Source: a phage
Direction: 5' to 3' (one strand)
Length of the DNA: 64,000 bases
Sequence record: PZ242158.1
A model generated the notes under the pieces. It was not told where the DNA came from and searched no databases. It was given only the letters and a program-made list of their open reading frames with translations. This document shows positions 17,635 through 44,336 of the stretch, one piece after another (the stretch's first letter is position 1; every line of letters starts with the position of its first letter). Position numbers and translations under genes: made by a program.

Positions 17635-17754
17635 ATGAGCACTACACGCCAATACACAAAGGTAACTATTATCGCCTGCGTTGTCGGTTACATCCTGGCG
17701 CAAATGTTAATGAGCAGCGCTAACAGTTTTGCAAAATTTTTCTTAAATTTTTAA
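17635..17754 (+). CDS. small hydrophobic peptide (39 aa)
   Basis: AAGGGGG RBS; MSTTRQYTKVTIIACVVGYILAQMLM...; below the ORF-track size cutoff. Confidence 0.4.
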   Translation: MSTTRQYTKVTIIACVVGYILAQMLMSSANSFAKFFLNF

Positions 17755-17782
17755 TTGACAAGCTAACTTAGATTGATATACT
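17755..17782 (+). promoter_or_regulatory. sigma70-like promoter followed by 5'-UTR hairpin
   Basis: TTGACA, 16 bp, TATACT; then CGGGAAAACTTCCC stem-loop. Confidence 0.55.
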
Positions 17783-17833
17783 TAAACACGTAAACGGGAA
17801 AACTTCCCAGAGCACACAAAAGGAGAAAACACC

Positions 17834-18175
17834 ATGACTACTATGACCGCCGCAGAAAAAGCTATTCAGATCGCCGCACTGAAAAAACAGATCGCAGACC
17901 TTGAGAACAAGATCGATAACTTTGAAATCGACGAGGACAAGTACGACGAAAACTATGATGAATGGTTAGACGAGATCTACGGCGAAATTATGATCGGAAA
18001 CATTTCTTTTCTTCCGTCGCGTATCCTCAAGGAGCTAGATCCTATCGCTTACCGCTGCGGATTTAGCGACTACATCGACAGCCTGGATATTGAGGACGAT
18101 GAAGAATACCAGGAATTACAGACAGAGTTAGAAGAAGCAAAAGAAGAGCTTGCAGAACTGGAAGAAAACGAGTAA
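17834..18175 (+). CDS. acidic coiled-coil protein
   Basis: AAGGAGAAAA RBS; Asp/Glu-rich C-terminus. Confidence 0.6.
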   Translation: MTTMTAAEKAIQIAALKKQIADLENKIDNFEIDEDKYDENYDEWLDEIYGEIMIGNISFLPSRILKELDPIAYRCGFSDYIDSLDIEDDEEYQELQTELEEAKEELAELEENE

Positions 18176-18177
18176 GA

Positions 18178-18221
18178 TTATTTTTAGATGGCCTTGACTC
18201 CAGGGCCATCAATAAAGTAAA
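18178..18221 (+). repeat. 44-bp conserved intergenic element, copy 2
   Basis: Identical to copy 1, again directly after a stop codon. Confidence 0.6.
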
Positions 18222-18264
18222 CTTTATACTGTTAACACTGAACTAATGCATAGGAGTTAAAACC

Positions 18265-18510
18265 ATGGCAGCACTAATCACCAAATATTATGCCCCTACC
18301 AACACCAAAAGCGCCCGTATCATGGTAAAAGGCTTCGGACGTAAAAAGGTGTACACCTGGGATTATGCCTTAGACACGGAAGACAACTACACCAACGCGA
18401 TGACCGATTTTATTAATGATCTGAACACGCGGATCTTGACAAATTATAAAATTACCGATATTGCCTATATAGGGGAAGGCGGGATCTGTTTTGTCGGTAT
18501 CGTCAAATAA
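18265..18510 (+). CDS. hypothetical protein
   Basis: TAGGAG RBS; no domain. Confidence 0.6.
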   Translation: MAALITKYYAPTNTKSARIMVKGFGRKKVYTWDYALDTEDNYTNAMTDFINDLNTRILTNYKITDIAYIGEGGICFVGIVK

Positions 18511-18585
18511 GCTGTTTTTTCGGTGGTCCTGGTAGCAGGGCCATCTATAAAGATAGTTTATCAATACAATGAAAGGAGAAAGTAC

Positions 18586-18939
18586 ATGATCAGCGGGGCA
18601 AGTTTTATTATTGGCGCTATTGCTACGGCTTTAATTGTAAACAAGATCCAATCTAAAAACGAAAAAGATAGCAACGCCCTTACAGAATACCCGTTTTGGG
18701 TATTCAACGACAATGAAGACTATATTATCAAGTACAAGAATGAGAAGGGCGACCAGGTAACACCGCGACCGATCCCGGCTTACAAGATGCAAGAAACACT
18801 ATACCGCCTAAAGGCTGGAGGCGCAAAAATCGTAGACTTTTGGGGATACGATCACACAGATCAGGAAGTTATAAAGCGCCGTATCCGGGCTATTCAGGCC
18901 AATATTGAAGTTAGCAAGGGGGGAATATATGAAGATTAA
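18586..18939 (+). CDS. membrane-anchored protein
   Basis: Internal Met after AAGGAGAAAG RBS; N-terminal hydrophobic helix. Confidence 0.55.
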   Translation: MISGASFIIGAIATALIVNKIQSKNEKDSNALTEYPFWVFNDNEDYIIKYKNEKGDQVTPRPIPAYKMQETLYRLKAGGAKIVDFWGYDHTDQEVIKRRIRAIQANIEVSKGGIYED

Positions 18940-19126
18940 TTTTGAGAAGATTGTAAAGCGATCTCATGCTTCCGAAGAGCTGCCGGAACGCCGCCAGCGC
19001 AACAATAAACTGAATAAGCCAAAAAGATTTGGGAAGATCTGGCGAAATCATTATGATCGCAAATTACCGGGCCTGCTTTTGGAACGTGAACGACAGGCGG
19101 AACGATACCGCCACAAAGGCAAATAA
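18929..19126 (+). CDS. small basic protein
   Basis: Internal Met; Arg/Lys-rich. Confidence 0.45.
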   Translation: MKINFEKIVKRSHASEELPERRQRNNKLNKPKRFGKIWRNHYDRKLPGLLLERERQAERYRHKGK

Positions 19127-19134
19127 CAACCAAC

Positions 19135-19163
19135 GCCCCGCCATTGTGCGGGGCTTTTTATTT
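19135..19163 (+). terminator. rho-independent terminator
   Basis: GCCCCGC-CATTGT-GCGGGGC stem-loop followed by TTTTTATTT. Confidence 0.7.
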
Positions 19164-19307
19164 CTATCCTACGAATAGCGCCCCCGGTTGGCCCTGTAAG
19201 CGCCAAAAAGGCCCCACCTATGCAATCGCCCCCCTTTAACCTGAAAACATCGCTTAGGGCCGTTTTATGGCGTTAAAAATATCATTGACAGTGATTTTAT
19301 TTAAAGC

Positions 19308-19335
19308 TTGACATCTTAAACAGGTTAGCTATACT
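19308..19335 (+). promoter_or_regulatory. sigma70-like promoter
   Basis: TTGACA, 16 bp, TATACT. Confidence 0.55.
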
Positions 19336-19367
19336 AACCACATCAAAGAGAGAAAGGAGTAAACGCC

Positions 19368-19628
19368 ATGCGTAAATTAAAAAATTTTGATAAAGTTGAT
19401 GTTGTCCTGAATAATTTTTACTACTGCAACAACAAGGCCATTTGGTGGCGTGATAGTTCCACCGATAAAGTTAAAGCTCGCTTTCTCCAAGGGCACTGGC
19501 AAGGCCGTCCAGTGATTAAAATACTGGGGCAACTGGTAGCGTTTAAAAATTGCCGCCGTGTTGATGACGTTGAAGAGATCTTGAACATTTTACGCCACAA
19601 TAATTTAAAAAATAGTGTTGACAAGTAA
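19368..19628 (+). CDS. hypothetical protein
   Basis: AAAGGAG RBS; no domain. Confidence 0.55.
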   Translation: MRKLKNFDKVDVVLNNFYYCNNKAIWWRDSSTDKVKARFLQGHWQGRPVIKILGQLVAFKNCRRVDDVEEILNILRHNNLKNSVDK

Positions 19629-19645
19629 ATCTCGATAAGTATACT
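19618..19645 (+). promoter_or_regulatory. sigma70-like promoter followed by 5'-UTR hairpin
   Basis: TTGACA, 16 bp, TATACT; then GGCGGGAAAACTTCCCGCC stem-loop. Confidence 0.55.
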
Positions 19646-19702
19646 TAAACACACAGGCGGGAAAACTTCCCGCCACTAACAAAGAAAATAGGAGAAAATA
19701 TC

Positions 19703-20326
19703 ATGACCACCGTTAACATTACCACAGGTTACAATTTATCTTTCGACGTGCTGACCGACGAACAAAAAGAAAAAGCTATTGAAATGGTCCGCGAAAGAGA
19801 AGAACACAGCGGGGATAATTTTTTTGCAGAAAGTGTAATTGAACACTATAAAGAATATGTCTTTCCAGAGTACGGCCTTGAAGATACCGAAGTACGTTGG
19901 TCCGGCTTTTGGTGTCAAGGCGATGGCGCGTCAATCAGTGCTGAAAACGTGGATTTAGAAAAATTCTTGCGTAAAGTAAAGGCCCTGACCAAGTTCCGAT
20001 CAATTCGTCACTTGTTCGGCACAATGCACGATGGCGAGTTATCAGCCAGTGTTGAACGTATCCCGTTTAGCCATTATCATCACGAAAACACAATAGGAGG
20101 GTGCATCGATACTAATTGGCTAGACCTGACCACCAAGCAAGAGGACAAAGTTGAAGAGCTGGAAGAGCTGATCACCGAGACGGTACGGGAGCTATCCCGC
20201 AAGGTTTACGTAGACCTGGAGGAGGCCTATCTTGAACAGTTTACTACCGAAAACCTGATCGGCCTTATTGAAGCCAATGATTGGCGGTTTGATGTGGATG
20301 AATATGGGGAGATGAGTTTTTCATAA
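19703..20326 (+). CDS. hypothetical protein
   Basis: TAGGAGAAAA RBS; 207 aa; no confident domain. Confidence 0.6.
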   Translation: MTTVNITTGYNLSFDVLTDEQKEKAIEMVREREEHSGDNFFAESVIEHYKEYVFPEYGLEDTEVRWSGFWCQGDGASISAENVDLEKFLRKVKALTKFRSIRHLFGTMHDGELSASVERIPFSHYHHENTIGGCIDTNWLDLTTKQEDKVEELEELITETVRELSRKVYVDLEEAYLEQFTTENLIGLIEANDWRFDVDEYGEMSFS

Positions 20327-20416
20327 ATAAAGTGTTGCAATAATCTAAAAACCTGCTATATTAAAAACTCAAGGGGCGAGATGACTTGCCCCCCACAAAA
20401 CAAAGAGGAAAACATC

Positions 20417-20797
20417 ATGAAAAACACTACTAAAGCTATTGACACCGTTATGTTTAACCTGGTTACATTCCGTGAAGATATGAAAGATCTTCCACGTGAA
20501 ACAGTGTGCGACCATATCGAAAACTATCGCAAACTAATCAAAGAGTTGCCTTTAAAACGTGACCAGTACGCGGCTAACGCTATGCTTAACGCCATGATCA
20601 AAAAGATGATCCAGTGTGATTTAACTCTGGCCTATGATTATGCAGGCGGTCGTTTTGCAGTATACAATCAGCCCGTGCCCGGTATGAGCACCACCGAAGA
20701 ATTGCACGCGTTAAATCTGAAACAAGATGTATGGGATAACATGCCCCGCGTGGTGGTGTGGGCAGAAAGCGGAAAGATTTACGGCGATAATTTTTAA
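20417..20797 (+). CDS. hypothetical protein
   Basis: Internal Met after AAGAGGAAAACATC (track ORF begins 20381). Confidence 0.55.
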   Translation: MKNTTKAIDTVMFNLVTFREDMKDLPRETVCDHIENYRKLIKELPLKRDQYAANAMLNAMIKKMIQCDLTLAYDYAGGRFAVYNQPVPGMSTTEELHALNLKQDVWDNMPRVVVWAESGKIYGDNF

Positions 20798-20861: not shown

Positions 20862-21233
20862 ATGGAATTTATTATTTTGGCTGTAGTAGTTGCCTTGTTC
20901 AACGCCTGGATCGCTGGCAAGATGGGTAGATCCGCTTTTTTATGGTTTATTATATCTATTTTCCTGGGGGTGGTTGCAACTATTGTACTTGTTATCCTTG
21001 CAATTGTTGACAAGGGGAATAATAGAAAGGGTAAAGTATTTTCAGACCTGTACGACGCTCAAACATTTGTCAACGCCTACTACAGCGATCTTCCAGTCTC
21101 CCTACGTTGCAGCCTTGCACAACAGGTTTTCGATGAAGCTAAAACCAGAGATCACGCCCATGAGATTTGTTTAACTGAGGCGGATCGCCTATTTGAGAGG
21201 AATAGAAAATATGTGGACCAGCCGTTTAAATAA
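20862..21233 (+). CDS. membrane protein
   Basis: Internal Met after AAGAGG; two hydrophobic helices. Confidence 0.5.
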   Translation: MEFIILAVVVALFNAWIAGKMGRSAFLWFIISIFLGVVATIVLVILAIVDKGNNRKGKVFSDLYDAQTFVNAYYSDLPVSLRCSLAQQVFDEAKTRDHAHEICLTEADRLFERNRKYVDQPFK

Positions 21234-21432: not shown

Positions 21433-21452
21433 CAGGAGGAAAGGGGGAGACG

Positions 21453-21572
21453 ATGACACCCAAGGATAAGCCCCGCACCGATAAGGCGCGCCGTGTTATG
21501 GTATGGCTTGAGATCATCGCCCTTGAAATATTGTTAGGCGTAGGGATGTATTTTATCGCTGTAAGTAATTGA
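21453..21572 (+). CDS. small hydrophobic peptide (39 aa)
   Basis: AAAGGGGGAGA RBS; MTPKDKPRTDKARRVMVWLEIIALEILLGVGMYFIAVSN; followed by terminator. Confidence 0.4.
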   Translation: MTPKDKPRTDKARRVMVWLEIIALEILLGVGMYFIAVSN

Positions 21573-21575: not shown

Positions 21576-21615
21576 CGGCCCCGATCCCTGGGGCCTAACT
21601 TTTCAAATTTTTTTT
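21576..21615 (+). terminator. rho-independent terminator
   Basis: GGCCCC-GATCCCT-GGGGCC stem-loop followed by T-rich tract. Confidence 0.55.
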
Positions 21616-23219: not shown

Positions 23220-23453
23220 ATGATGGAACAAATTAAACGCGCCGAGGCTATTAATGGCAACGTGATCTATTTTGTCAGCAAAAACGAAAAAGGCGTACCC
23301 TATGCGGCGGTAATAGTACAGCCTGACGGCGATTATTGGTGTACTGTGTACGGCGCTTATTCTTTTGGGCGTCCAGTGCATGATAAAATTTTGAAAGTAG
23401 CGAACCCTACCGGGAAAAATATCACAGCAGAAAAATTTTTTGAAAATAGTTGA
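23220..23453 (+). CDS. hypothetical protein
   Basis: AGAGAGG RBS. Confidence 0.55.
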   Translation: MMEQIKRAEAINGNVIYFVSKNEKGVPYAAVIVQPDGDYWCTVYGAYSFGRPVHDKILKVANPTGKNITAEKFFENS

Positions 23454-23476
23454 CATGACCATATAAGACTGTAGTA
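23449..23476 (+). promoter_or_regulatory. sigma70-like promoter
   Basis: TTGACA, 16 bp, TAGTAT; then GGGGC-AA-GCCCC hairpin. Confidence 0.5.
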
Positions 23477-23524
23477 TATAAATCAAAGGGGCAAGCCCCA
23501 CCAACCACAAAGAGGATAAAAATC

Positions 23525-23704
23525 ATGGCTATTATTGCAAAGACTGAGATCGTAGGCTTGGATTCTATTCTCCTCGCATATGAGGAAGCTATAGAAATGT
23601 ATGTGGTTTCCTATGGTGAGTATATCCGTGAATATAAATCTATTGATCTGGCTTTTGAATGTTATATTCGCCAGGTTAATAAAGCGTACGATGATTATCG
23701 TTAA
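23525..23704 (+). CDS. small protein (59 aa)
   Basis: AAAGAGGATAAAAATC RBS; below track cutoff. Confidence 0.45.
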   Translation: MAIIAKTEIVGLDSILLAYEEAIEMYVVSYGEYIREYKSIDLAFECYIRQVNKAYDDYR

Positions 23705-23794: not shown

Positions 23795-23899
23795 ATGAAA
23801 CAGAAATTAATTGATGCGGTGATCCTGGTTATTGCCCTGGGTATTGGCCTGATTGCAACCATGGCTAATGTGATCTTGTCTTCCAACGGTATCGGGTGA
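23795..23899 (+). CDS. small hydrophobic peptide (34 aa)
   Basis: AAGAGGAAAACAAA RBS; MKQKLIDAVILVIALGIGLIATMANVILSS. Confidence 0.4.
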   Translation: MKQKLIDAVILVIALGIGLIATMANVILSSNGIG

Positions 23900-24215: not shown

Positions 24216-24500
24216 ATGAAAAAGATGATCGCAGTGGTTGCCCTGGTTGTTGGACTTAATGCGCCTGTAATGGCTAAAGAGCTGGCAAAAGAGGTTGATC
24301 TAACGGATATCCATGCCGTCAATCAAATCGGGGTTACTTATCGCTTATGCCTTGCCGCTAAAACTTTTAATGACGGCACAACAGAGTACTACGGATTCGA
24401 GGGTATCCGGTGCGGTGAGCTTGCTCGCGACCTTAAGGAAGATCCAGACCTGGAAGATCTGCCCATCACCGTAAACGGTAAAGCTTACGTAAACCGTTAA
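24216..24500 (+). CDS. secreted or periplasmic protein
   Basis: AAAGAGGATAGACACA RBS; signal-peptide-like MKKMIAVVALVVGLNAPVMA. Confidence 0.55.
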   Translation: MKKMIAVVALVVGLNAPVMAKELAKEVDLTDIHAVNQIGVTYRLCLAAKTFNDGTTEYYGFEGIRCGELARDLKEDPDLEDLPITVNGKAYVNR

Positions 24501-24502: not shown

Positions 24503-24637
24503 ATGAGAAAGATAATCATCACCTTGGGGATTGTGGCGGGATCGCTGGCGCTCTTTCTCCTTATGGTTAGGTATGTGCTGATCGGTATTGTCCTGGTAGT
24601 CAGTGATCTATTGGAAACGGTTGGCACCTTGTTTTAA
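24503..24637 (+). CDS. small hydrophobic peptide (44 aa)
   Basis: Start 2 nt after upstream stop; hydrophobic throughout. Confidence 0.4.
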   Translation: MRKIIITLGIVAGSLALFLLMVRYVLIGIVLVVSDLLETVGTLF

Positions 24638-24857: not shown

Positions 24858-24887
24858 AACAGGGCTTGCAATGGTCCTGTTTTTTTG
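24858..24887 (+). terminator. rho-independent terminator
   Basis: AACAGG...CCTGTT stem followed by TTTTTTT. Confidence 0.55.
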
Positions 24888-24900
24888 TTATACTTGTTTC

Positions 24901-24948
24901 ACGGCAGGCACCTGGCGACGGGGGGAGACAATCACCGGGTGTGCCTGC
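24901..24948 (-). repeat. inverted copy of the CCGGTGATTGTCTCCC element
   Basis: Reverse complement closely matches copy B core at ~15905-15945. Confidence 0.5.
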
Positions 24949-24970
24949 TATATAAAAACTATAAAAACCG

Positions 24971-24999
24971 TTGACATCTGCCAGGTGCTGGGGTAGCAT
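24971..24999 (+). promoter_or_regulatory. sigma70-like promoter
   Basis: TTGACA, 17 bp, TAGCAT. Confidence 0.5.
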
Positions 25000-26216: not shown

Positions 26217-26234
26217 TTTTTTAACTGAATTATC

Positions 26235-26259
26235 AAGGGGCTTAGGTCCCTTTCTTTTT
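26235..26259 (+). terminator. putative rho-independent terminator
   Basis: AAGGG...CCCTT stem followed by TCTTTTTG. Confidence 0.45.
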
Positions 26260-26859
26260 GTCTGCTCTTCCTCCCTACCATAAACGGCCCTACCTGGCAA
26301 GTGGAATAATTGACGAGCCATCAATCCCACACACTGTACAAATATACATGTAAAATAACTATTGCATAACCTTTCATTGTGTGGTAGCGGTGCTATTTTT
26401 ACCCGTTTTCCTTCCAAAATTGCACGTAATGCAGCTATTGCACAAAATTTAACCTGATGCGCATCTTCAATATCTTGTCAACAACTAAAAATCTTTATAA
26501 GTCATACACTTACACAAACCAAAAAGCGTGTTCTACGTGAAAAATCGAGTATAACTATAGCCGACAGATCTCAGAATTTACGTACGCTCACCATTCTATA
26601 GCCTGCTAAGTATTTATTCCGACCATAGAATAACAGAATAGTCAATACCTGCATAAAATAATTATTCGTTTAAATTGCATAACATAAATCAGCTCAGGTG
26701 TCAACATTTTTCGTAAACAGTCTGAAATTGTCACGGCAAGTTATCATAATCAGAGAAATCTTTAGTCGTCTAATGTTTACTGTACGTTACTATACTAACT
26801 GGAATCATTAGATGACTAATAGAAAGATAAGAAATAATTAACAATACAATTATTTTATC

Positions 26860-27045
26860 TGTAACAATAAGGCAACTATGCAAACGAATGGCATGGCGCG
26901 ACGGAGTCGCGACATAATATAAAAGCAGTAACCATCACCCCCGTGATAGTTTGTCTGCAATCTATTAATCAGATCATAGTTGCCTTGTATTTAGTTAATC
27001 ATGACATAACAAGCAAGGCAACTATAGATCTTCTAATAGTTGCCC
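26860..27045. repeat. iteron-like cluster (AGGCAACTAT / ATAGTTGCC in both orientations)
   Basis: At least four copies within ~180 bp plus duplicated ATGCAAACGAATGGCATGGC and palindrome CGCGACGGAGTCGCG in an AT-rich ORF-poor region. Confidence 0.5.
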
Positions 27046-27284
27046 TGCTTTTATATTATGTCATATATTATTAACTTGTTAATTGTTAGTCAGTCAAATC
27101 AACAGCGTTATCATTTCAGTCTTTATTGTTGTTGATCGTTATTGTTATCATGCAAACGAATGGCATGGCTTATCATCTCTGTATAAACAGTTTATGCGTG
27201 AACAGTGAGGCATGCAATAGTAACAATTGTTATTGTGTCATCATGTCAAGGGTAAAGTGTCATAGTATGTCAGACATGTTTTTC

Positions 27285-28277
27285 CCCTCTTTGTCAAGTG
27301 CTGCATGAAAAAATTTACAAGCTGGTATGGTAGCATTTTTGCGGCCTTGTTTACATTCAGGAGTGTATGTATAATCCTTGTTGTGTGGGCGTTTATACGT
27401 CTGGACGGTCAGAAGTCTGCAGGTTAATATCTAATCTATTGGCTGCTAACTATATCCCACACAAATGATAAGAAATATAATTGTTATATGCGTAAACTGT
27501 AACTCATGTTATCAATCCCTGTATGTATCGCCAGTGGTGCGCATAATGGGTATTATGTTAAATTGCCCGTAATGATAACAGTTCTCACAATGATAGGTAT
27601 TCTCATTCATCCACACAAAATAGGTTGCAAATGTTGTGCCACTGTGTGAACGGCCTGGCCTATTAATTTCTCTCACTGCCTCGATATTTGAGAATTGTTA
27701 TAAGAATGAGAAGTATCCATGTTTATATTACATCTACTTGGTTCAGAACCAAAATGCGCGAAAGCGTTTCACGATAACTAGCGACCACGGTCTGTTCCCT
27801 GGCGGCCATACGGCTTCTACTGAACGCAGCAGAGGGCGATAATCCCCTCTTTGTCAAGTGCTGCATGAAAAAATTTACAAGCTGGTATGGTAGCATTTTT
27901 GCGGCCTTGTTTACATTCAGGAGTGTATGTATAATCCTTGTTGTGTGGGCGTTTATACGTCTGGACGGTCAGAAGTCTGCAGGTTAATATCTAATCTATT
28001 GGCTGCTAACTATATCCCACACAAATGATAAGAAATATAATTGTTATATGCGTAAACTGTAACTCATGTTATCAATCCCTGTATGTATCGCCAGTGGTGC
28101 GCATAATGGGTATTATGTTAAATTGCCCGTAATGATAACAGTTCTCACAATGATAGGTATTCTCATTCATCCACACAAAATAGGTTGCAAATGTTGTGCC
28201 ACTGTGTGAACGGCCTGGCCTATTAATTTCTCTCACTGCCTCGATATTTGAGAATTGTTATAAGAATGAGAAGTATT
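27285..28277. repeat. tandem direct repeat: two near-identical ~430-bp copies (about 27285-27717 and 27845-28277) separated by ~128 bp
   Basis: Long stretches read identically at a ~560-bp offset; each copy contains promoter-like TTGTTT-17-TATAAT. Confidence 0.7.
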
Positions 28278-28410
28278 CCCATTCCGTCCGCCTGGCAGCG
28301 CTCCTGTAGGTCCTGCAAGGACTCTAGCTTTCAGCTAGACCCTTCGGGCCTCCCTACAGGTCAGGTCAAAATCGTGGTAGAATTGGGCCTATTCAGATAT
28401 TTCTGGCTGA

Positions 28411-28952
28411 CTCTTCAGGTCTGTGTGGGAAAAGCCAACCTCTCCGGCGGGGCAGGGGGAGGTCAATTAAAAAATTTACGTGGTGTATGAAGCGCTCTTC
28501 AGGTAAGGCAGGTATTATGGGATGAAACCCTCTTCAGGCAATGATATTTGTGGGTGTGATATTTGCTGGAAAGCCAGATATGACGGGACTCCCGGCGGGG
28601 CAGGGGTAGTACAGACAGGGAAAATATGAGAATGTAGTTGGGGAAATTGATCAGACAGGTAGAGTATGGAATATGTTACAAGTATGTTAAATATGGAGGT
28701 TGAATATCTGTAGGATTTGTGTGTAAAATCAAAGACTTAAGGGGTGTTGTGATATTTTCTATAAATAATTCAAGTTTAATAGGTGATATTTGTCTCTATC
28801 CGCTTTGTGTGGTAAACAGATTCAGATGAGATTGGTTTACAAGTGTATACATAATATACAAATTAAAGATACAAGAAACCCCCCATCCCCCTTCGGCTAC
28901 CATTCACCTTTTCCTCTGACTGGTACTTAAACACTTATTCAGACTCTTCAGG
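28411..28952. repeat. cluster of CTCTTCAGG boxes (4 copies; a 5th near 29594) and duplicated CCGGCGGGGCAGGGG
   Basis: 9-mer recurs at ~28411, 28495, 28530, 28944 within non-coding DNA; also long inverted repeat CCTGTAGG...CCTACAGG at ~28300-28360. Confidence 0.5.
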
Positions 28953-29304
28953 TTATCACCCATATATCATATGGCAGTGACTGGTGTCCTCCGGCCCCTC
29001 TTTCGTCACCCGTCCGCTTCGCCATGCTAATGCCATAGCCAATGGTTCGGTTGTTCACCCTGTTCACTCAGGTGTATCTCCATACCCCTTCAAACCGAAG
29101 AGAACAGAAAACCCGAATTACTCGGTAAAAGAAAAGAGAAGAACTTAATTTTATCAGGATAGGCAAGAATGTCAAGGCATGACTGCTCACTAAACAAGCA
29201 AACAGTCATGTGTGGGAGGTAAGTGATTGTGGTGGTGGGAAATTTAGTTGAAAGATGTGTTATAGGTGCGCTTCCAGCACTTTAGCCGGGCAGCTAATTG
29301 TGTG

Positions 29305-29641: not shown

Positions 29642-29854
29642 TCATAGTCTACCACCCCTGAACTCTTCGTGCTCAGGCATAATAGAGAACCAGATATCTA
29701 CGATGTCTTCCCACGTTAGGTCATCAGCCTCAGGATCTACCTGGAGCGAAGATGGAGAATCTTCAGAATCTAAGTTTTCCTCTTTCACTGGCTCAGCCAA
29801 GGGACATATAGTCACTCCTTTGGATGTCTCTTCAGATGCATGTGTGTTTATCAT
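29642..29854 (-). CDS. small acidic protein
   Basis: Start overlaps upstream stop (ATGA). Confidence 0.5.
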   Translation of the reverse strand: MINTHASEETSKGVTICPLAEPVKEENLDSEDSPSSLQVDPEADDLTWEDIVDIWFSIMPEHEEFRGGRL

Positions 29855-29940
29855 GTTCCACCCGTGAGTATTCCGGCAACAGCCGCTATGGACGTAATGA
29901 TCATCAGGATCACCACTAAAACTTCGGACAATGTTCTCAT
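29851..29940 (-). CDS. small hydrophobic peptide (29 aa)
   Basis: GGAG RBS; MRTLSEVLVVILMIITSIAAVAGILTGGT; stop overlaps next start. Confidence 0.4.
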   Translation of the reverse strand: MRTLSEVLVVILMIITSIAAVAGILTGGT

Positions 29941-31243: not shown

Positions 31244-31495
31244 TTAACGTTCTACAAAAATATCGTTCAGTTCAATAACCAGGAATTTCTGGTCTTCACT
31301 GTCGTCTCGTGCCAGCACCTCACAGACGTATCGGTCATCTCCATCATCATCGCAGTCAAATACAAGACTGAGGACTTTATCATGGTAAACCTTCGCCACT
31401 ACCGCCTCGTAAGTATTGCCGATTGTGAATCCAAGATAATCTCCGATGCATTTGACAACAACATGGTCTCCAGCATTTAAGTCAATCTTCGTCAT
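31244..31495 (-). CDS. small acidic protein
   Basis: Internal Met after AAGGAG RBS (track ORF extends to 31561). Confidence 0.5.
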   Translation of the reverse strand: MTKIDLNAGDHVVVKCIGDYLGFTIGNTYEAVVAKVYHDKVLSLVFDCDDDGDDRYVCEVLARDDSEDQKFLVIELNDIFVER

Positions 31496-31650
31496 TACTG
31501 CGCTCCTTGGGTAATAATACTGTATGTAAAACTTTAACCAGAGATGTGAATAACGCCCCAAAACACACCGATAGCGCTAAAACAGACAAGGCCATCATTA
31601 AAGCTTCAGTAAAATCAGTCACCCCTCACCTCTTGTTAGTCACTATACTG

Positions 31651-31914
31651 TCATTTATCCTTGCCGTCAAGAACTTTTTTAAATCTTTCAGGGATATCGC
31701 CTGTTCTTAGATAGCTCATGACCTCACAAGGTTCCCACTTAAATTTCTTACAAAGCAGGGCGGCTGAGATTGTTTCATTGCGAAAAGAAAGGATATTAAT
31801 ATCCCATTCTGAGAACCCCAACTTCCGAAGGGTAGCTACAGAAATCCTCACCGCAACCCAGCAGCAAAAACATGCAACAAACGCCACTGCTATAACCCAC
31901 ATCAGGATGTTCAT
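31651..31914 (-). CDS. membrane protein
   Basis: N-terminal hydrophobic helix MNILMWVIAVAFVACFCCWVAV. Confidence 0.5.
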   Translation of the reverse strand: MNILMWVIAVAFVACFCCWVAVRISVATLRKLGFSEWDINILSFRNETISAALLCKKFKWEPCEVMSYLRTGDIPERFKKVLDGKDK

Positions 31915-31923: not shown

Positions 31924-32007
31924 TCACTGAAATACAAGACACAGTGTTAAGGTTACTGACCAGCAAATAATTAACAGTGCCGTTGCAACCTTGGCAAGAT
32001 TTATCAT
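31924..32007 (-). CDS. small hydrophobic peptide (27 aa)
   Basis: ATG overlaps upstream stop; MINLAKVATALLIICWSVTLTLCLVFQ. Confidence 0.35.
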   Translation of the reverse strand: MINLAKVATALLIICWSVTLTLCLVFQ

Positions 32008-32291
32008 AGTGCCTCTAAGATTTCATATCCTTCGGGTCGGAATACAAGCCACTCCGTGGCTCCGTTTGGTCGATACGCTTTATACAGAACAACCTGATCT
32101 CGGCACATGCACATAGCTACATAGTTTTCATCCACACCTGCAGCCTGCATTGCAGCTTCTTCTCCGGCAACTGCTTTGCTTACAACCTCCTTGGTAGGCA
32201 GGTGTGCGATCAGCTCGTCACCATCATTAATTCCAAAATGGCTGAGTTCTCCATTGGTATCTTTAATCTTAATCTTAACCAGATCTTTCAT
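32004..32291 (-). CDS. small acidic protein
   Basis: Coupled ORF; no domain. Confidence 0.5.
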   Translation of the reverse strand: MKDLVKIKIKDTNGELSHFGINDGDELIAHLPTKEVVSKAVAGEEAAMQAAGVDENYVAMCMCRDQVVLYKAYRPNGATEWLVFRPEGYEILEAL

Positions 32292-34394: not shown

Positions 34395-34664
34395 TTATTC
34401 CTCTACAATCTCATACACATCCGGAGTTACAATCAACTCTTCTCCGTTACCCGGTGCAACAAACACCACCATGCCTTCAGGTGTGTGCTTTTTAGCCATC
34501 TCGATAACATCTTCTCGCAGAGCTGGCTCCATCAGATCAAAACCTTCACCCAGGGCATCACGAACCACCTTCATATAGTCAACTGGTTGTGCTTCGACAA
34601 TCATACCTTCAACCAGTCCACAGTTTTTGTCTGCCAGCTCAGTTTTGAATAATTTAATTTTCAT
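34395..34664 (-). CDS. small acidic protein
   Basis: MKIKLF N-terminus; ends EIVEE. Confidence 0.5.
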   Translation of the reverse strand: MKIKLFKTELADKNCGLVEGMIVEAQPVDYMKVVRDALGEGFDLMEPALREDVIEMAKKHTPEGMVVFVAPGNGEELIVTPDVYEIVEE

Positions 34665-34690: not shown

Positions 34691-34792
34691 TTAATAGCCG
34701 TAACCTAACACATTAACTACAACTGCGATTGCAAACATAATTTCAAAGCATGCAATCTCTACATTTGGGACTAATTTCTTGATCACACCCAT
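34691..34792 (-). CDS. small hydrophobic peptide (33 aa)
   Basis: GAGGTG RBS just downstream of HPF stop; MGVIKKLVPNVEIACFEIMFAIAVVVNVLGYGY. Confidence 0.35.
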   Translation of the reverse strand: MGVIKKLVPNVEIACFEIMFAIAVVVNVLGYGY

Positions 34793-34801
34793 TGTAGCAC
34801 C

Positions 34802-35119
34802 TCATTCTCTAAAGTCAATCTTTACTTTGCCTTTCCCCTTACCTTTCTTTCCACCGCATTTAGCCAGTTGACGTGCTGCAACATCTACCATACGGTCAGT
34901 TGCCTCGTAAGCATCACTGCCTTTAGCTTTGGCAATAACTTCTTTTCCAGAATTGTCAAAAATGAACGCCATAACTTCCTGGTGATCATTTTCAACTTTT
35001 ACACTCACACGTGCATAGTTGGCAGAGGGATGCAAACGCTCCAGCTTAGACATTTTGTGGGAAATGAAAGACACCATACCTTCAGTGATTTCTACGTTGC
35101 CAGTGATTTCAATTTGCAT
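34802..35119 (-). CDS. hpf: ribosome hibernation promoting factor homolog (HPF/RaiA family)
   Basis: MQIEITGNVEITE...KLERL...VSVKVE...GKEVIAKAKGSDAYEATDRMVDVAARQLAK aligns along its length with E. coli HPF/RaiA; Lys/Gly-rich C-terminal extension. Confidence 0.8.
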   Translation of the reverse strand: MQIEITGNVEITEGMVSFISHKMSKLERLHPSANYARVSVKVENDHQEVMAFIFDNSGKEVIAKAKGSDAYEATDRMVDVAARQLAKCGGKKGKGKGKVKIDFRE

Positions 35120-38528: not shown

Positions 38529-38728
38529 CCCTCACCGCACGTCTGATATAACCACTCTATAAAATCTTGATACCATTCGCCCTCTGAGCGCTCCGTAGGC
38601 CAATAATCTTCACCCTCTCGTGCATTAAAATCTGAGTATTCAACTTTCCACTCCTTTACCAGCTCGTGGAGAAGGTTTTCAGCCTGCTCTAAAGATTTAT
38701 TTTTTACCATTGCTGTCTCCTTTTTCAA
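38525..38728 (-). CDS. hypothetical protein
   Basis: TTG start in track; internal ATG with AAGGAG RBS also possible. Confidence 0.45.
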   Translation of the reverse strand: MKKETAMVKNKSLEQAENLLHELVKEWKVEYSDFNAREGEDYWPTERSEGEWYQDFIEWLYQTCGEG

Positions 38729-38929
38729 GATAGTTATACATCAGAACTGCACCACCTAAGATGGCTACCAGTAACAATATCCCAGATAGCATCTCAATAA
38801 ACATGGCTTGAAACACTGGAAGGTCTCCCTAAATTAACGCACCATTTTAAATACATGCTCTTTTCCCATAAAGGTGCCTGGCTAAGATCTGCGTAGAACG
38901 CAATCTCTTTAAGAACAGTATAGATAGTT

Positions 38930-41474: not shown

Positions 41475-41490
41475 GCAAATCTCCAGATCA

Positions 41491-41513
41491 TAAAAGCCCT
41501 CCGAAGAGGGCTT
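41491..41513 (-). terminator. intergenic hairpin, putative terminator
   Basis: AAGCCCTC-TTCG-GAGGGCTT hairpin downstream of the ClpP-like stop. Confidence 0.45.
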
Positions 41514-41525
41514 TAGAATTAATGT

Positions 41526-42575
41526 TTAAGCTTCTTCGACAATTCCTGCACCCAGGATTTTTTCATTGAGCTCTTTTGCTGTTTTAATAATATTGTCCAC
41601 AAGACGCTTGCGAGTCTTATCTTTCACCTTAACCTCTTCACCGCCGTTCAGAGTAGTCTTCAATTGAGACAGAATATCCTGAAGTTCAACGACAGAGAAT
41701 CTCTGCAGATCTTCTGAAGTAATCTCACCCAGGGCAATTCGGACGGTCTCGCCACTTTCCATCTGCAGATTCAGGAACACAGTGTGAACATCACCTTTCG
41801 AACCACCCGCTTTTGCAGATTCAACAGCATGAACTAACTCATCTAAAGATGTGCACTGATGAATCTCCGGAAGACCTGCTTCACCTAACACGCCTTCTTC
41901 ATCACCTTTTGCCAGAAGCTTTTTCGGTTTTTGTCCGTTCTGGATGCGTTGTATGTTGCCTTCATCCAGAATAATAGCTCCAGTGCGTGCTGCCAACTCT
42001 TCTCCGTCCAACCACACTTCGCCACCAGCTGTGATGGATGCGATCTCATCTTCTGTCAGCACCCCACCGTAGTATTTTTCGATCAGGTGTTCAAAACGTT
42101 TTTTCCAGTAGCTGACCTGAGTATTCATGTTAACACCGTTACCATAAGTGCCACCTTGATAGTAGTGGAACATAAATTCTGTGTCCGGAGCCACAGTGCG
42201 TTCTTTGCAACCAAGCCATAAGATTGTTCCAGCAGAGCAGCACATCCCTTCAGCATGTGCAACAACGCTTGCCTGAGACTCGCGGAATGCCTGCAGATAG
42301 GCCATTGCAATGTGCACGCAACCACCAGGGCTATTGATGATCACACGTATGCTTTCTTCCGGCTGAGCCATACGGATCGTCTGCAGACGAGACATATGAT
42401 CCTGCAGGTCCTCCAAATCGTCGATATAAAGAACGTGGTCAACAACAGGTGTTGGGTAGCTGTATGTTTCCATGATACCGCCCGGCATACCAAACATTTT
42501 ATTACTCATAGGTTCGAAACCGTTCTGTTTTTCTTTCATGCCGTGTACCATGGTGCTGCGAGGTGTTAAATTCAT
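41526..42575 (-). CDS. ClpP-like serine peptidase (S14 family) with C-terminal extension
   Basis: IINSPGGCVHIAMAYLQAF...VAHAEGMCCSAGTILWL...FMFHYYQG matches the ClpP fold with Ser and His positions; ~130-aa charged C-terminal extension. Confidence 0.7.
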   Translation of the reverse strand: MNLTPRSTMVHGMKEKQNGFEPMSNKMFGMPGGIMETYSYPTPVVDHVLYIDDLEDLQDHMSRLQTIRMAQPEESIRVIINSPGGCVHIAMAYLQAFRESQASVVAHAEGMCCSAGTILWLGCKERTVAPDTEFMFHYYQGGTYGNGVNMNTQVSYWKKRFEHLIEKYYGGVLTEDEIASITAGGEVWLDGEELAARTGAIILDEGNIQRIQNGQKPKKLLAKGDEEGVLGEAGLPEIHQCTSLDELVHAVESAKAGGSKGDVHTVFLNLQMESGETVRIALGEITSEDLQRFSVVELQDILSQLKTTLNGGEEVKVKDKTRKRLVDNIIKTAKELNEKILGAGIVEEA

Positions 42576-42635
42576 GAGAAATCCTTAATATTGGAAGTTG
42601 AAAGCTATTTATTTAAACCTGATTCACATTTACCT

Positions 42636-42947
42636 TTATTTAGCAATCACTATGGAGTACTTACGATTGTCAGAAGCATCACAACTCAGTGATTGCCAAT
42701 CTACCACATACCACGTATCATTGTCAACAATTACTTTATCGCCTGTTCTGTAGCAAGTGCTGCTTTCAATAATTCGAGACTCGATAAAGAATCTGTGTCG
42801 GCGCTCACGTAGCAACGCTAAGTTGATTATATTACCACCGCTGTCCTTGGTCCACACATTCTTGGATCCTTTATTTGCCAAAATTGTCTCACCGTTATAG
42901 ACAAATAGGCAGTATATTTTATTCAGTTTCTCTTGTATTGTAGCCAT
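42636..42947 (-). CDS. hypothetical protein
   Basis: Internal Met after AGAAGGA RBS (track ORF extends to 43070 and would overlap phoH). Confidence 0.5.
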   Translation of the reverse strand: MATIQEKLNKIYCLFVYNGETILANKGSKNVWTKDSGGNIINLALLRERRHRFFIESRIIESSTCYRTGDKVIVDNDTWYVVDWQSLSCDASDNRKYSIVIAK

Positions 42948-42975
42948 ACTGTCCTTCTCTTTGTTTTGTCCGATA

Positions 42976-43004
42976 ATAATATCTAAAGCTTGCCTATTTG
43001 TCAA
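42976..43004 (-). promoter_or_regulatory. sigma70-like promoter (minus strand)
   Basis: On the minus strand: TTGACA, 17 bp, TATTAT. Confidence 0.5.
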
Positions 43005-43048
43005 CAACTGTTTTAGATATTTAAGGGTGGAATAACCACCCTTCTGTA

Positions 43049-43837
43049 TTACTCGGAAACAGGGGTCCAAATATGATTTGCACGATCCTCAATAAGATTG
43101 AGTGCGATTTGACGACCCAACCCGGAACGAACGACATCGTCTGGACTATCAAAGCTGATCATTCCAACCTCAGGATCTGGATGACGAGTAAAGAAATCTG
43201 TCACCCATGCAAGGCCAGATTTACCAGGGATGTCACGTTGGCTATTATCACCCATAATTACAAGGGTGGCTTGATCAGAGATCCTTGTGATAATTGACAA
43301 CATTTCTTCAGGGTTAGTTTGCTGTGCCTCGTCAATCAGGACAAAGCATCGCTCATCGAAACTACGACCACGAATGCTTTCAACTTCACAAATCTCGATA
43401 CGACTGTTCTGACCGTCTCCCAGCATTGCGGCAAAAGCACCTTTGCCAACACGACGACAAATCGTGTCCATCATGCTTCGAAGATAGGGCCACAGTTTCT
43501 GCATTGCATTTCCGGGTTTAAATCCTGAAGTCTTTCCTGTCTGGACGTAAGGACGTGCAACAATGATCTTATCAATCTCGTTCTTACGCAGAAGATCACC
43601 TGCATATGCAGATGCCATAAATGTCTTACCGGATCCAAACACGCCGTTTACAATAATAATCTTACGTGACCCTAGATAATCAAGATACTTTTGCTGCTTC
43701 TTATTCATTGGTCGGAGAGCTGGAGCGGTGTGCTCTCTTTCGTCAGCAAATTTCTCAGCAGCCTTACGCAGGCGATCAGATTTGCGAGCCTCTCTAGCTT
43801 CATCACGCATGCGTTTTGTTTCTTTAGCTCGACCCAT
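43049..43837 (-). CDS. phoH: PhoH-like ATPase
   Basis: Walker A GVFGSGKTF and PhoH-family similarity through the core. Confidence 0.85.
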   Translation of the reverse strand: MGRAKETKRMRDEAREARKSDRLRKAAEKFADEREHTAPALRPMNKKQQKYLDYLGSRKIIIVNGVFGSGKTFMASAYAGDLLRKNEIDKIIVARPYVQTGKTSGFKPGNAMQKLWPYLRSMMDTICRRVGKGAFAAMLGDGQNSRIEICEVESIRGRSFDERCFVLIDEAQQTNPEEMLSIITRISDQATLVIMGDNSQRDIPGKSGLAWVTDFFTRHPDPEVGMISFDSPDDVVRSGLGRQIALNLIEDRANHIWTPVSE

Positions 43838-43875
43838 GTTGGGACTCCTTTCAGATTGAGATGTGCCAAGTACTT

Positions 43876-44226
43876 TTACTGCAACAGTTTTTCAATAGCC
43901 GCTTCCATGCTGCTTGCAACAGCCTGAACTCGGATATTCATCTCTTCTTGGTGGATCAGCTCCTTAAGCTCTTTAATGGTAAATTCTTTAGAGAAACCTT
44001 CCACCATAATCTTGTGCAAGGCTTCTTGCGTGTCTACTTGCAAGAACTTTTCCAGTTTGTTGGCAGAGGCTTCTAAATCAGCCCGAATACGAGGGTCATC
44101 TGTGCGATTCAGCATTAGGCGTAAGCCATCAAGATTAGTAGAAATAGCATCTGCATGTTGAGTAACTAACCGTGGCAAAATGAGGTCTACAAACTTATTA
44201 GCCAAATCGATACGTTCTTGTGTCAC
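43876..44226 (-). CDS. hypothetical protein
   Basis: GTG start overlapping upstream stop (GTGA). Confidence 0.5.
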   Translation of the reverse strand: MTQERIDLANKFVDLILPRLVTQHADAISTNLDGLRLMLNRTDDPRIRADLEASANKLEKFLQVDTQEALHKIMVEGFSKEFTIKELKELIHQEEMNIRVQAVASSMEAAIEKLLQ

Positions 44227-44336
44227 TGTTGCACCCCCTCTTCATCTTCATGATGTTTCTTTTCACGCTTGTGTTTTTTCTTAAGCTCAAGCGCAATCTC
44301 TTTCTTGTACGCCTTCTTCAAGGCTTTTTTAGCCAT
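44223..44336 (-). CDS. small basic protein (37 aa)
   Basis: GGAGGTG RBS; MAKKALKKAYKKEIALELKKKHKREKKHHEDEEGVQQ. Confidence 0.45.
   Translation of the reverse strand: MAKKALKKAYKKEIALELKKKHKREKKHHEDEEGVQQ

What the first reader, a model, noticed from the sequence alone, without database searches (positions are those of the whole stretch)
17635..44336. Micro-ORFs below the 60-aa cutoff with strong RBSs and translational coupling
Hand translation finds 27-59-aa genes with good RBSs, mostly single-helix hydrophobic peptides (17635, 21453, 23795, 24503, 29851, 31924, 34691), plus a 59-aa protein at 23525 and a 37-aa basic peptide at 44223. Several overlap neighbours by ATGA. Such peptides often modulate membrane proteins, lysis timing or host transporters and are routinely missed in annotation.
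Basis: seen in the sequence. Interest (0 to 1): 0.4.

Follow-up and report, generated by a model that had tools for sequence, protein, structure and literature searches.

The report
Small conserved genes in rV5-like phage
The nine tiny open reading frames are real, evolutionarily conserved genes of an rV5-like E. coli phage, mostly single-helix membrane peptides. Eight are already catalogued as hypothetical proteins, only one 27-codon gene looks unannotated, and none has a known function.

Summary
The window is an rV5-like E. coli myophage (Vequintavirus), 99.5% identical to rV5_ev156. All nine micro-ORFs exist at the stated coordinates.

- **RBS and coupling:** eight have Shine-Dalgarno pairing typical of this phage's long genes. 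The 24503 ORF has none and starts 2 nt after the upstream stop. Three share 4-nt overlaps with neighbours.
- **Membrane character:** seven carry a TM-like helix, against 5 of 80 control small ORFs.
- **Conservation:** across up to 28 related loci, each ORF stays intact in all or all but one haplotype, whereas 18 of 20 control ORFs are broken. Synonymous changes are in excess (omega 0.05-0.6).
- **Weakest cases:** 34691 and, until extra loci were added, 31924.
- **"Routinely missed" is mostly wrong:** seven were annotated in phage rV5 itself (five as "membrane protein, 1 TMD"). Eight hit full-length PHROG families and seven exact sequences are in public databases. Annotation is patchy for 24503 and 29851.
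- **The exception:** the 27-aa ORF at 31924-32007 is annotated nowhere I looked and is absent from PHROGs.
- **Function:** unknown. There are no Pfam or NCBIfam matches. The 59-aa protein folds confidently (four strands plus a helix) with no solved relative.

This is ordinary, already-known biology with one small addition.

The parts
17635..17754 (+). 39-aa single-TM micro-protein, corresponding to rV5 gp193 'membrane protein'. It lies between a weak sigma70-like site (17573-17602) and a strong one (17755-17782).
   Evidence: phrog_16391, E = 5e-30, full length. Intact in 9/9 haplotypes, omega 0.14-0.23, p about 3e-6. SD -10.7. KD maximum 1.90. rV5 Table S3. Promoter scan.
21453..21572 (+). 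39-aa micro-protein with a basic N-terminus and one TM that contains two conserved Glu (LEIIALEIL). It corresponds to rV5 gp181. It is the last gene before a terminator-like hairpin (21577-21595), downstream of a 2-TM protein (20862-21233) that one record calls 'putative holin'.
   Evidence: phrog_13629, E = 7e-32. Intact in 12/12, omega 0.24-0.26, p about 1e-4. SD -10.7. Seen on 154 contigs..
23525..23704 (+). 59-aa acidic soluble protein, corresponding to rV5 gp174. It is the first gene after a sigma70-like site at 23450-23477.
   Evidence: phrog_9374, E = 7e-39. Omega 0.05-0.08, p = 2e-9. 33 clusters, all 57-60 aa, in Vequinta-, Stephanstirm- and roughly 350-kb jumbo phages. AF2 pLDDT 95.5, four strands plus a helix. 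No PDB match. Only uncharacterised phage proteins match in BFVD.
23795..23899 (+). 34-aa single-TM micro-protein with the conserved C-terminal motif ATMAN(M/V)ILSS(N/H)GIG. It corresponds to rV5 gp173, which is annotated there in a 46-aa form starting at the equivalent of 23759.
   Evidence: phrog_14631, E = 2e-22, 34-aa profile. Homologues in phAPEC8, a Justusliebigvirus and two metagenome contigs. 14 unique sequences, omega 0.48, p = 2e-4.
24503..24637 (+). 44-aa very hydrophobic peptide, either one long helix or a two-helix hairpin. It has no SD and starts 2 nt after the stop of 24216-24500, which encodes a 94-aa protein with a signal-peptide-like N-terminus. It corresponds to rV5 gp170.
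   Evidence: phrog_16005, E = 7e-24. SD +0.6. Intact 43-44-aa ORF in 15 unique sequences, including phAPEC8-type phages and a relative at 70% nt identity. Omega 0.60, p = 0.012. Cleanly deleted in LL12, A147 and C14. Sub-threshold DUF7396 hit.
29851..29940 (-). 29-aa single-TM micro-protein. It is the first gene after a sigma70-like site (30001-29973), and its stop overlaps the start of 29642-29854 (ATGA).
   Evidence: phrog_34195, E = 4e-21, matching residues 5-33 of the 33-aa form, so the start is 29940. SD -5.9 against +0.5 for 29952. Omega 0.10-0.37, p = 0.001-0.002. One relative (L007) has a 3' frameshift giving 35 aa. Annotated in phage Murica.
31924..32007 (-). 27-aa single-TM micro-protein filling the 89-nt gap between 32004-32291 and 31651-31914. 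Its start overlaps the upstream stop (ATGA). It is not annotated in any record examined.
   Evidence: No PHROG hit and not in the 15-billion-protein collection. tblastn finds it full length in 118 phage records, and nothing is annotated under it in rV5. 13 unique sequences are all intact. ATG/GTG and TGA/TAA vary but the frame is kept. Omega 0.46, p = 0.005, while the other two frames have omega above 1.1. Divergent relatives L005 and L026 keep a 27-codon hydrophobic ORF in the same slot.
34691..34792 (-). 33-aa single-TM micro-protein between the phage HPF (ribosome hibernation factor) gene 34802-35119 and 34395-34664. It corresponds to rV5 gp145 'membrane protein'.
   Evidence: phrog_15151, E = 4e-26. 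Seen on 753 contigs. SD GAGGTG, -6.9. The C-terminal 23 residues are invariant in every sequenced relative except one I18S variant (L015), including a relative at 87% nt identity. L018 lost the ATG but gained an ATG two codons downstream. Omega 0.45-0.47, p = 0.045-0.17. No significant RNA fold.
44223..44336 (-). 37-aa Lys-rich basic peptide with an acidic tail, between nrdG (44401-44874) and 43876-44226. Its stop overlaps the next gene's GTG (GTGA). It corresponds to rV5 gp118.
   Evidence: phrog_7670, E = 2e-20. SD AGGAGGT, -13.3. Omega 0.05, p = 2e-7. Only one 50%-identity cluster among 1.84 billion proteins.
38697..38816 (-). Not in the finding: a 39-aa single-TM micro-gene with a GTG start here and ATG in some relatives. 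It corresponds to rV5 gp131 'membrane protein'.
   Evidence: intact in 7/8 haplotypes, omega 0.07, p = 3e-9. Table S3.
31482..31622 (-). Not in the finding: a 46-aa single-TM micro-gene with a GTG start here and ATG in relatives. It corresponds to rV5 gp156 'membrane protein'.
   Evidence: intact in 9/10 haplotypes, omega 0.22, p = 3e-5..
44871..44987 (-). Not in the finding: a 38-aa Cys-rich micro-gene (CxCxC...CPxC). Its stop overlaps the nrdG start (ATGA).
   Evidence: SD AAGGAGG, -12.9; intact in 6/6 haplotypes, omega 0.09, p = 8e-6.

Best explanation
The nine ORFs are bona fide translated micro-protein genes. They belong to the "small-ORF arrays" of an rV5-like (Vequintavirus) E. coli phage. 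These arrays sit between the replication and nucleotide-metabolism modules and carry many sigma70-type promoter-like sites.

**What they encode**
- Seven encode peptides of 27-44 aa that are essentially one transmembrane helix. 24503 may form a two-helix hairpin.
- Most have a short basic N-terminus, which predicts an N-in orientation in the host inner membrane.
- One (23525) is a compact soluble acidic domain of four strands plus a helix.
- One (44223) is a Lys-rich basic peptide.

**How they are translated**
- Most use their own Shine-Dalgarno sequence.
- 24503, 29851, 31924 and 44223 also have stop/start proximity or a 4-nt overlap with a neighbouring gene.

**Shown here:** the ORFs exist, are kept open, and evolve under purifying selection at the amino-acid level.

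**Inferred, not shown:** the peptides insert into the inner membrane during infection. There they would act by binding larger membrane proteins of the host or of the phage. Candidate partners are neighbouring genes: the 2-TM protein upstream of 21453, the signal-peptide protein upstream of 24503, and the N-terminal-TM protein downstream of 31924. The outcome would be accessory and conditionally dispensable, such as host takeover, exclusion or envelope modulation, rather than a core function.
For: **Identity of the phage.** The region is 99.5% identical to rV5_ev156, with 237 related phage records.

**ORF retention.** Every candidate is intact in all or all but one unique haplotype, across up to 28 related loci. 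By contrast, 18/20 antisense, alternative-frame or gap control ORFs of 20-53 aa are broken in relatives, with omega of 0.7-1.5 wherever enough substitutions were available to estimate it. A 40-aa hydrophobic ORF in the non-coding gap is frameshifted in all 17 relatives.

**Excess of synonymous change in the proposed frame only.**
- 17635: omega 0.23, p = 5e-6.
- 21453: omega 0.26, p = 8e-5.
- 23525: omega 0.08, p = 2e-9.
- 23795: omega 0.48, p = 2e-4.
- 24503: omega 0.60, p = 0.012.
- 29851: omega 0.37, p = 0.002.
- 31924: omega 0.46, p = 0.005.
- 44223: omega 0.05, p = 2e-7.

**Deep conservation.** 23795 and 24503 are kept in phAPEC8-type phages of another subfamily. 23525 occurs in jumbo phages.

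**Compensating changes.**
- A start-codon shift in 34691.
- ATG/GTG and TGA/TAA swaps in 31924.
- The upstream stop is re-positioned but stays adjacent to the 24503 start.

**Expression signals.** SD energies are like those of long genes for 8/9. Promoter- and terminator-like sites bracket several of them.

**TM enrichment.** 7/9 against 5/80 controls.

**Accessory nature.** 24503 is cleanly deleted in three relatives. 29851 has a frameshifted C-terminus in one. 23795 exists as two allele types.
Against: - There is no direct evidence of translation, membrane insertion or any partner. The only proteomics found for this phage group was on virions (PMC3606486).
- Constraint is modest for 24503, 23795, 31924 and 34691 (omega 0.45-0.6). 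For 34691 the test is not significant in one version (p = 0.17).
- The substitution counts treat distinct codon variants as independent events and ignore recombination, so the p-values are approximate.
- A sigma70-like site (34818-34791) overlaps the 34691 start codon. From that promoter the ORF would lie in a 5' leader.
- No family membership gives functional information.
Confidence: 0.8

Rival explanations
1. For the least constrained ORFs (24503, 31924, 34691), what is selected is the act of translation rather than the peptide. They would be short relay or leader ORFs that pass ribosomes from the upstream gene to the downstream gene, or tune its expression. Their hydrophobic products would be incidental.
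For: - 31924 overlaps the upstream stop by ATGA and ends 9 nt before the next ATG, with that gene's SD inside its 3' end.
- 24503 has no SD and starts 2 nt after the upstream stop.
- 34691 lies 9 nt after the HPF gene, and a promoter-like site overlaps its start.
- Omega is only 0.45-0.6.
Against: - Amino-acid motifs are conserved well beyond what an open frame needs. 24503 keeps MV(R/E/K)(Y/H)VLI..VL.VSDL across two subfamilies. 34691 keeps its C-terminal 23 residues essentially invariant.
- Hydrophobic TM character is retained in the divergent 31924 homologue, at only about 37% identity by my hand alignment.
- Synonymous excess is specific to the proposed frame.
- 24503 can be deleted cleanly with its downstream gene kept, so it is not needed as a relay.
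Confidence: 0.12
2. The hydrophobic peptides are lysis-system components or membrane-damaging effectors that set lysis timing. Candidates would be antiholin- or holin-like proteins, spanin-like proteins, or type I-toxin-like pore formers.
For: - 21453 is the last gene of a unit containing a 2-TM protein (20862-21233) that the WalterGehring record calls "putative holin", and a terminator-like hairpin follows it.
- The sizes and single TM resemble type I toxins (from general knowledge).
Against: - The rV5 paper's own candidate holin (gp129) is a different gene, separate from the lysin gene gp89. None of the nine sits beside either gene in its gene table.
- There are no Pfam or NCBIfam hits to holin, spanin or type I toxin families.
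- None has a lipobox Cys. The LPAM_1 hit for 24503 is sub-threshold.
- The nine are scattered over 27 kb on both strands, not in a cassette.
Confidence: 0.1
3. The ORFs are chance open frames in intergenic spacers. Their conservation would reflect promoters, terminators, RBSs or simply recent common ancestry.
For: - The spacers do carry promoter- and terminator-like sites.
- Many relatives are more than 95% identical, which makes ORF retention uninformative among them.
Against: - The more divergent relatives (70-87% nt identity) still keep every ORF that is present.
- Control ORFs in the same spacers are broken.
- Substitutions concentrate at third codon positions of the proposed frame.
- Gap-filling ORFs with an SD occur 7:0 on the sense against the antisense strand.
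Confidence: 0.03

Closest known systems
Phage rV5 gene products gp193, gp181, gp174, gp173, gp170, gp145 and gp118 (Kropinski et al. 2013, PMC3606486, Table S3), and the matching PHROGs 16391, 13629, 9374, 14631, 16005, 15151, 7670 and 34195
   Same: They have the same sizes, order and neighbours. The PHROG matches are full length (E from 1e-20 to 1e-39). Five are already labelled "membrane protein, 1 TMD".
   Different: Nothing of substance differs; these are the same genes in a near-identical phage. gp173 is annotated in a longer 46-aa form. The 29-aa gene is absent from the rV5 table but is annotated in phage Murica. The 27-aa gene at 31924 has no counterpart in the rV5 table or in PHROGs.
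Bacterial small inner-membrane regulators (MgrB, AcrZ, KdpF, MgtS, CydX, PmrR), from general knowledge
   Same: They are 27-49 aa, are essentially one TM helix, and act (in the bacterial cases) by binding a larger membrane protein. Conserved polar or acidic residues lie inside the helix in 21453 and 34691.
   Different: There is no sequence relationship (no NCBIfam or Pfam hit). These are phage-encoded, and no partner is known. This is an analogy for mechanism only.
Small phage-encoded host-takeover and exclusion proteins (for example T4 Imm/Sp and Stp, lambda Kil, T7 gp0.4), from general knowledge
   Same: They are short accessory proteins, often dispensable and variably present among relatives, encoded in arrays of small genes that carry host-type promoter-like sites.
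   Different: No homology was detected, and the timing of expression was not measured here.
Pfam DUF7396 (for 24503 only)
   Same: It is a roughly 46-aa hydrophobic family. Three variants align end to end (residues 2-43 to profile positions 3-44).
   Different: The scores are 13-17.7 bits against a gathering threshold of 27. The window's own copy gives no hit. The family's function is unknown anyway.

Membership tests
PHROG families 16391, 13629, 9374, 14631, 16005, 34195, 15151, 7670 | Significant full-length match to the family profile | tested here: met
   E from 2e-20 to 7e-39. Alignments cover the whole peptide and the whole profile, except 1-37 of 46 for phrog_7670 and residues 5-33 for the 33-aa form of 29851. 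The 31924 peptide has no hit.
rV5 small-ORF-region genes (orthologues of gp193/181/174/173/170/145/118) | Same length and same position relative to conserved neighbours in the rV5 genome | tested here: met
   Table S3 lengths and order match the window's gene order. The exact 23525 sequence carries rV5-era accession ABI79239.1. A rV5 homologue of 24503 was retrieved (P0073).
Protein-coding gene (general) | ORF retention and excess synonymous substitution in the proposed frame across diverged relatives | tested here: met
   It is weakest for 34691 (p = 0.045-0.17), and was weak for 31924 before the extra loci were added (p = 0.06, then 0.005).
Protein-coding gene (general) | Direct evidence of translation (ribosome footprints or a detected peptide) | not testable with these tools
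   No Ribo-seq or infected-cell proteomics for a Vequintavirus was found.
Holin / antiholin / spanin | Match to a holin or spanin family, or a lipobox for o-spanins | tested here: not met
   No Pfam or NCBIfam hit. None has a lipobox Cys.
Holin / antiholin / spanin | Location in a lysis cassette next to the endolysin | tested here: inconclusive
   In the rV5 gene table neither the lysin gene (gp89) nor that paper's candidate holin (gp129) is next to a counterpart of any of the nine. I did not map the lysin gene in this window. Only 21453 is near a 2-TM protein that one record calls "putative holin".
Type I toxin peptides (Hok, Ldr, TisB, Ibs, ShoB) | Family profile match | tested here: not met
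   No NCBIfam or Pfam hit at E up to 1. No Rfam antitoxin RNA family was found in the window.
Bacterial small membrane regulators (MgrB, AcrZ, KdpF and others) | Family profile match | tested here: not met
   No NCBIfam or Pfam hit. The resemblance is in size and architecture only.
Pfam DUF7396 (24503) | Score at or above the gathering threshold (27 bits) | tested here: not met
   The best score is 17.7 bits, for a relative. The window's copy gives none.

The most novel reading that the evidence does not exclude
The 27-codon ORF at 31924-32007 would be a genuine, previously unannotated membrane micro-protein. It is conserved in at least 118 rV5-like genomes and lies below the roughly 90-nt minimum length that I recall for common gene callers. 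More broadly, the dozen or so single-helix peptides of this phage would form a toolkit, each docking onto a different host inner-membrane protein. That would make rV5-like phages a rich source of natural peptide modulators of E. coli membrane machinery.
Probability: 0.25. Interest if true: 0.5.

Novelty: already known. Interest (0 to 1): 0.2.

Why it matters
**For annotation.** This is a clean demonstration that sub-60-aa genes in phage small-ORF arrays can be validated by comparative genomics alone.
- Annotation of these genes is inconsistent between records. In seven annotated relatives, 17635 is called in 4, 24503 in 2 of 5 that carry it, 29851 in 1, and 31924 in none.
- From memory, a 90-nt minimum gene length in common callers would hide a gene like 31924.

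**For biology.** The genes have been known as hypotheticals since the rV5 genome paper, and nothing here reveals their function. The result therefore mainly tells the next reader not to treat them as a discovery.

**Best experimental handles.**
- The conserved acidic pairs inside the TM helices of 21453 and 34691.
- The invariant C-terminal motif of 23795.
- The confidently folded, widely transferred 59-aa protein at 23525.

Tried and rejected
- **IMG/VR scans** with two neighbouring proteins gave only one full-length relative.
- **The metagenome scan** added 8 loci.
- **Homologue searches.** The search for homologous proteins refuses queries under 40 aa, so only 24503, 23525 and a neighbour of 31924 could be searched.
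- **Exhaustive HMMER search with 44223** found only its own cluster.
- **Family libraries.** Pfam and NCBIfam gave nothing usable. Pfam on 17 neighbouring proteins identified only HPF and NrdG.
- **RNA-element reading of 34691.** No Rfam family is present in the window. The fold z-score is -0.8. The low divergence of its 3' part is within the range of neighbouring 30-nt bins. Rejected.
- **Paralogy among the micro-proteins.** There are no significant pairwise matches; the best is 21453 against 34691 at E = 0.14 in a ten-sequence search. Rejected.
- **Fold search of 23525** against the PDB gave no match with E below 1.
- **Literature searches** found no transcriptome, Ribo-seq or infected-cell proteome for this phage group.
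- **A first, stricter SD pattern match** missed the GGGGG-type sites of 17635 and 21453. I replaced it with duplex energies.
- **One search was an empty script.** One control (gp130-like) was run one base out of frame and should be ignored.

Full report
**What the window is.** The 17-26.5 kb stretch is 99.5% identical to Escherichia phage rV5_ev156, and 237 phage records match it, almost all Vequintavirus. Genes run on the plus strand up to about 26.2 kb and on the minus strand from about 29.3 kb, converging on an ORF-free 3-kb stretch. [quoted passage not shown]

**Checking the observation.**
- All nine ORFs are present.
- Five are plus-strand genes at the stated starts.
- The other four coordinates (29851, 31924, 34691, 44223) are the stop ends of minus-strand genes whose starts are 29940, 32007, 34792 and 44336.
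- Lengths are 39, 39, 59, 34, 44, 29, 27, 33 and 37 aa.
- For 29851, the 29-aa form from ATG 29940 is the real one. It has an SD and the 29952 start does not, and the PHROG profile is 29 residues long.

**Ribosome-binding sites.**
- Duplex energies with the 16S 3' tail are -10.7, -10.7 and -13.3 kcal/mol for 17635, 21453 and 44336.
- They are -5.8 to -6.9 for 23525, 23795, 29940, 32007 and 34792.
- The median is -7.1 for this window's long genes, and the mean is -2.2 for all ATGs.
- The exception is 24503 (+0.6), whose ATG follows the upstream stop by 2 nt.

**Overlaps and hydrophobicity.**
- Four-base overlaps exist for 29851 (ATGA with the next start), 31924 (ATGA with the previous stop) and 44223 (GTGA with the next start).
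- Seven peptides have a TM-like 19-mer.
- That compares with 5 of 80 control small ORFs and 7 of 115 longer genes.

**Are they genes?** I collected 28 related loci.
- Sources: annotated phage records, IMG/VR, metagenomes and Logan/ENA contigs.
- Every candidate is intact in all or all but one distinct haplotype.
- 18 of 20 control ORFs of similar size (antisense, other frames, other spacers) are broken in relatives. Their omega is about 0.7-1.5 wherever enough substitutions exist to estimate it.
- A hydrophobic 40-aa ORF in the non-coding gap is frameshifted in all 17 relatives.

**Substitution counts in the proposed frame.**

| ORF | omega | p |
|---|---|---|
| 17635 | 0.23 | 5e-6 |
| 21453 | 0.26 | 8e-5 |
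| 23525 | 0.08 | 2e-9 |
| 23795 | 0.48 | 2e-4 |
| 24503 | 0.60 | 0.012 |
| 29851 | 0.37 | 0.002 |
| 31924 | 0.46 | 0.005 |
| 34691 | 0.47 | 0.17 (0.045 in the nucleotide-alignment version) |
| 44223 | 0.05 | 2e-7 |

The other two frames give omega of about 1 or more. These p-values are approximate, because distinct codon variants are treated as independent events.

**Qualitative support.**
- 23795 and 24503 are retained in phAPEC8-type phages of another subfamily and in a relative at 70% nt identity.
- The upstream stop next to 24503 changes form (TAA, TAG, or TGA within ATGA) but stays adjacent to the start.
- One relative of 34691 lost the ATG and gained an ATG two codons downstream.
- In 31924, ATG/GTG and TGA/TAA interchange while the 27 codons stay open. 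Two divergent relatives carry a 27-codon hydrophobic ORF in the same slot with a GTGA overlap.

**Are they "routinely missed"? Mostly not.**
- rV5's own gene table lists gp193 (39 aa, membrane protein, 1 TMD), gp181 (39 aa, membrane), gp174 (59 aa), gp173 (46-aa form, membrane), gp170 (44 aa, membrane), gp145 (33 aa, membrane) and gp118 (37 aa, pI 9.8) in the right places.
- Eight of nine match full-length PHROG families of unknown function.
- Seven exact sequences are in public protein databases, some on hundreds of contigs.
- Across seven annotated relatives, 21453, 23525, 34691 and 44223 are nearly always called and 17635 and 23795 are often called. 24503 is called in 2 of the 5 that carry it, 29851 in 1, and 31924 never.
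- The 31924 peptide is absent from PHROGs and from the 15-billion-protein collection.
- tblastn nevertheless finds it full length in 118 phage records, with nothing annotated under it in rV5.
- At 84 nt including the stop, it is below the roughly 90-nt floor that I recall for common gene callers.

Three more micro-genes show clear coding signatures:
- 38697-38816(-), 39 aa, TM, corresponding to rV5 gp131, omega 0.07.
- 31482-31622(-), 46 aa, TM, corresponding to rV5 gp156, omega 0.22. It also lies inside the range.
- 44871-44987(-), 38 aa, Cys-rich, omega 0.09. It lies just beyond the range.

**What do they do?** Nothing informative came from Pfam, NCBIfam or the neighbouring genes.
- 44223 is confined to this phage group.
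- 23525 is the most tractable. It forms 33 clusters, all 57-60 aa and at least 71% identical, spread across Vequinta-, Stephanstirm- and roughly 350-kb jumbo coliphages.
- Its AF2 model is confident (pLDDT 95.5, four strands plus a C-terminal helix).
- It has no solved relative, and only uncharacterised phage proteins match in BFVD.

**Context clues for the membrane peptides.**
- 21453 ends a unit that contains a 2-TM protein and is followed by a terminator-like hairpin.
- 24503 is coupled to a protein with a signal-peptide-like N-terminus, and it is cleanly deleted in three relatives.
- 31924 precedes a protein with an N-terminal TM helix.
- 29851 and 23525 are the first genes after sigma70-like sites.

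**Most likely mechanism, by analogy only.** The peptides probably insert into the inner membrane and bind larger host or phage membrane proteins as dispensable accessory factors. Translation-only "relay" ORFs and lysis-timing peptides remain possible for some of them.

**Verdict.** They are already-known hypothetical proteins of a well-sequenced phage genus. The only addition is one probable unannotated 27-aa gene.

Noticed in passing
window 26217-29304: A 3-kb ORF-free stretch lies where the two gene blocks converge; the rV5 paper calls it "non-coding". It is as conserved as coding DNA (86-97% identity in relatives, including the most divergent one). No Rfam family or tRNA was found in it.
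   Followed up: partly
window 27283-27716 and 27843-28276: A perfect 434-bp direct repeat (560-bp spacing) sits inside the non-coding stretch. All 17 relatives that have this segment carry a single copy. It is either a recent duplication in this genome or an assembly artefact.
   Followed up: partly
window 44871-44987 (-): A 38-aa Cys-rich micro-gene (MSSGIYKICKCGCRCNLRWCKALDDFIWHCPECDTEYL) that looks zinc-ribbon-like. It has a strong SD, its stop overlaps the nrdG start by ATGA, and omega is 0.09. It is not in the finding, and the exact sequence is not in the protein collection.
   Followed up: partly
window 38697-38816 (-) and 31482-31622 (-): Two further single-TM micro-genes (39 and 46 aa) lie inside the finding's range but were not listed, probably because they start with GTG here. 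Both are under strong purifying selection and correspond to rV5 gp131 and gp156.
   Followed up: yes
window 24885-24974 (+): A 29-aa TTG-initiated ORF between a terminator-like hairpin and a promoter-like site is intact in 8/8 haplotypes, with omega 0.29 and p = 0.007. It is annotated in phage WalterGehring (bas51_0130). It is the one control that behaved like a gene, and this is unexplained.
   Followed up: no
window 21453-21572 and 34691-34792: Both TM peptides carry two conserved Glu five residues apart inside or at the edge of the helix (LEIIALEIL and VEIACFEIM). The pair is not significantly similar overall.
   Followed up: partly
window 23795-23899; loci L004, L015, L012, L017, L024: The 34-aa gene exists as two allele types that share only the C-terminal motif. 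Some Vequintavirus-like contigs carry the phAPEC8-type allele, which suggests exchange between subfamilies.
   Followed up: no
window 34791-34818 (-): A sigma70-like site (TTGACT-16-TACAAT with an upstream TG) has a -10 hexamer that overlaps the ATG of the 33-aa gene. Transcripts from it would begin inside that ORF.
   Followed up: no
loci L007-L010, L015, L017 (GenBank MG0656xx): Unannotated, UNVERIFIED records named "Campylobacter phage" are 93-96% identical to this E. coli rV5-like phage across the whole region. They are probably mislabelled or co-isolated coliphages.
   Followed up: no
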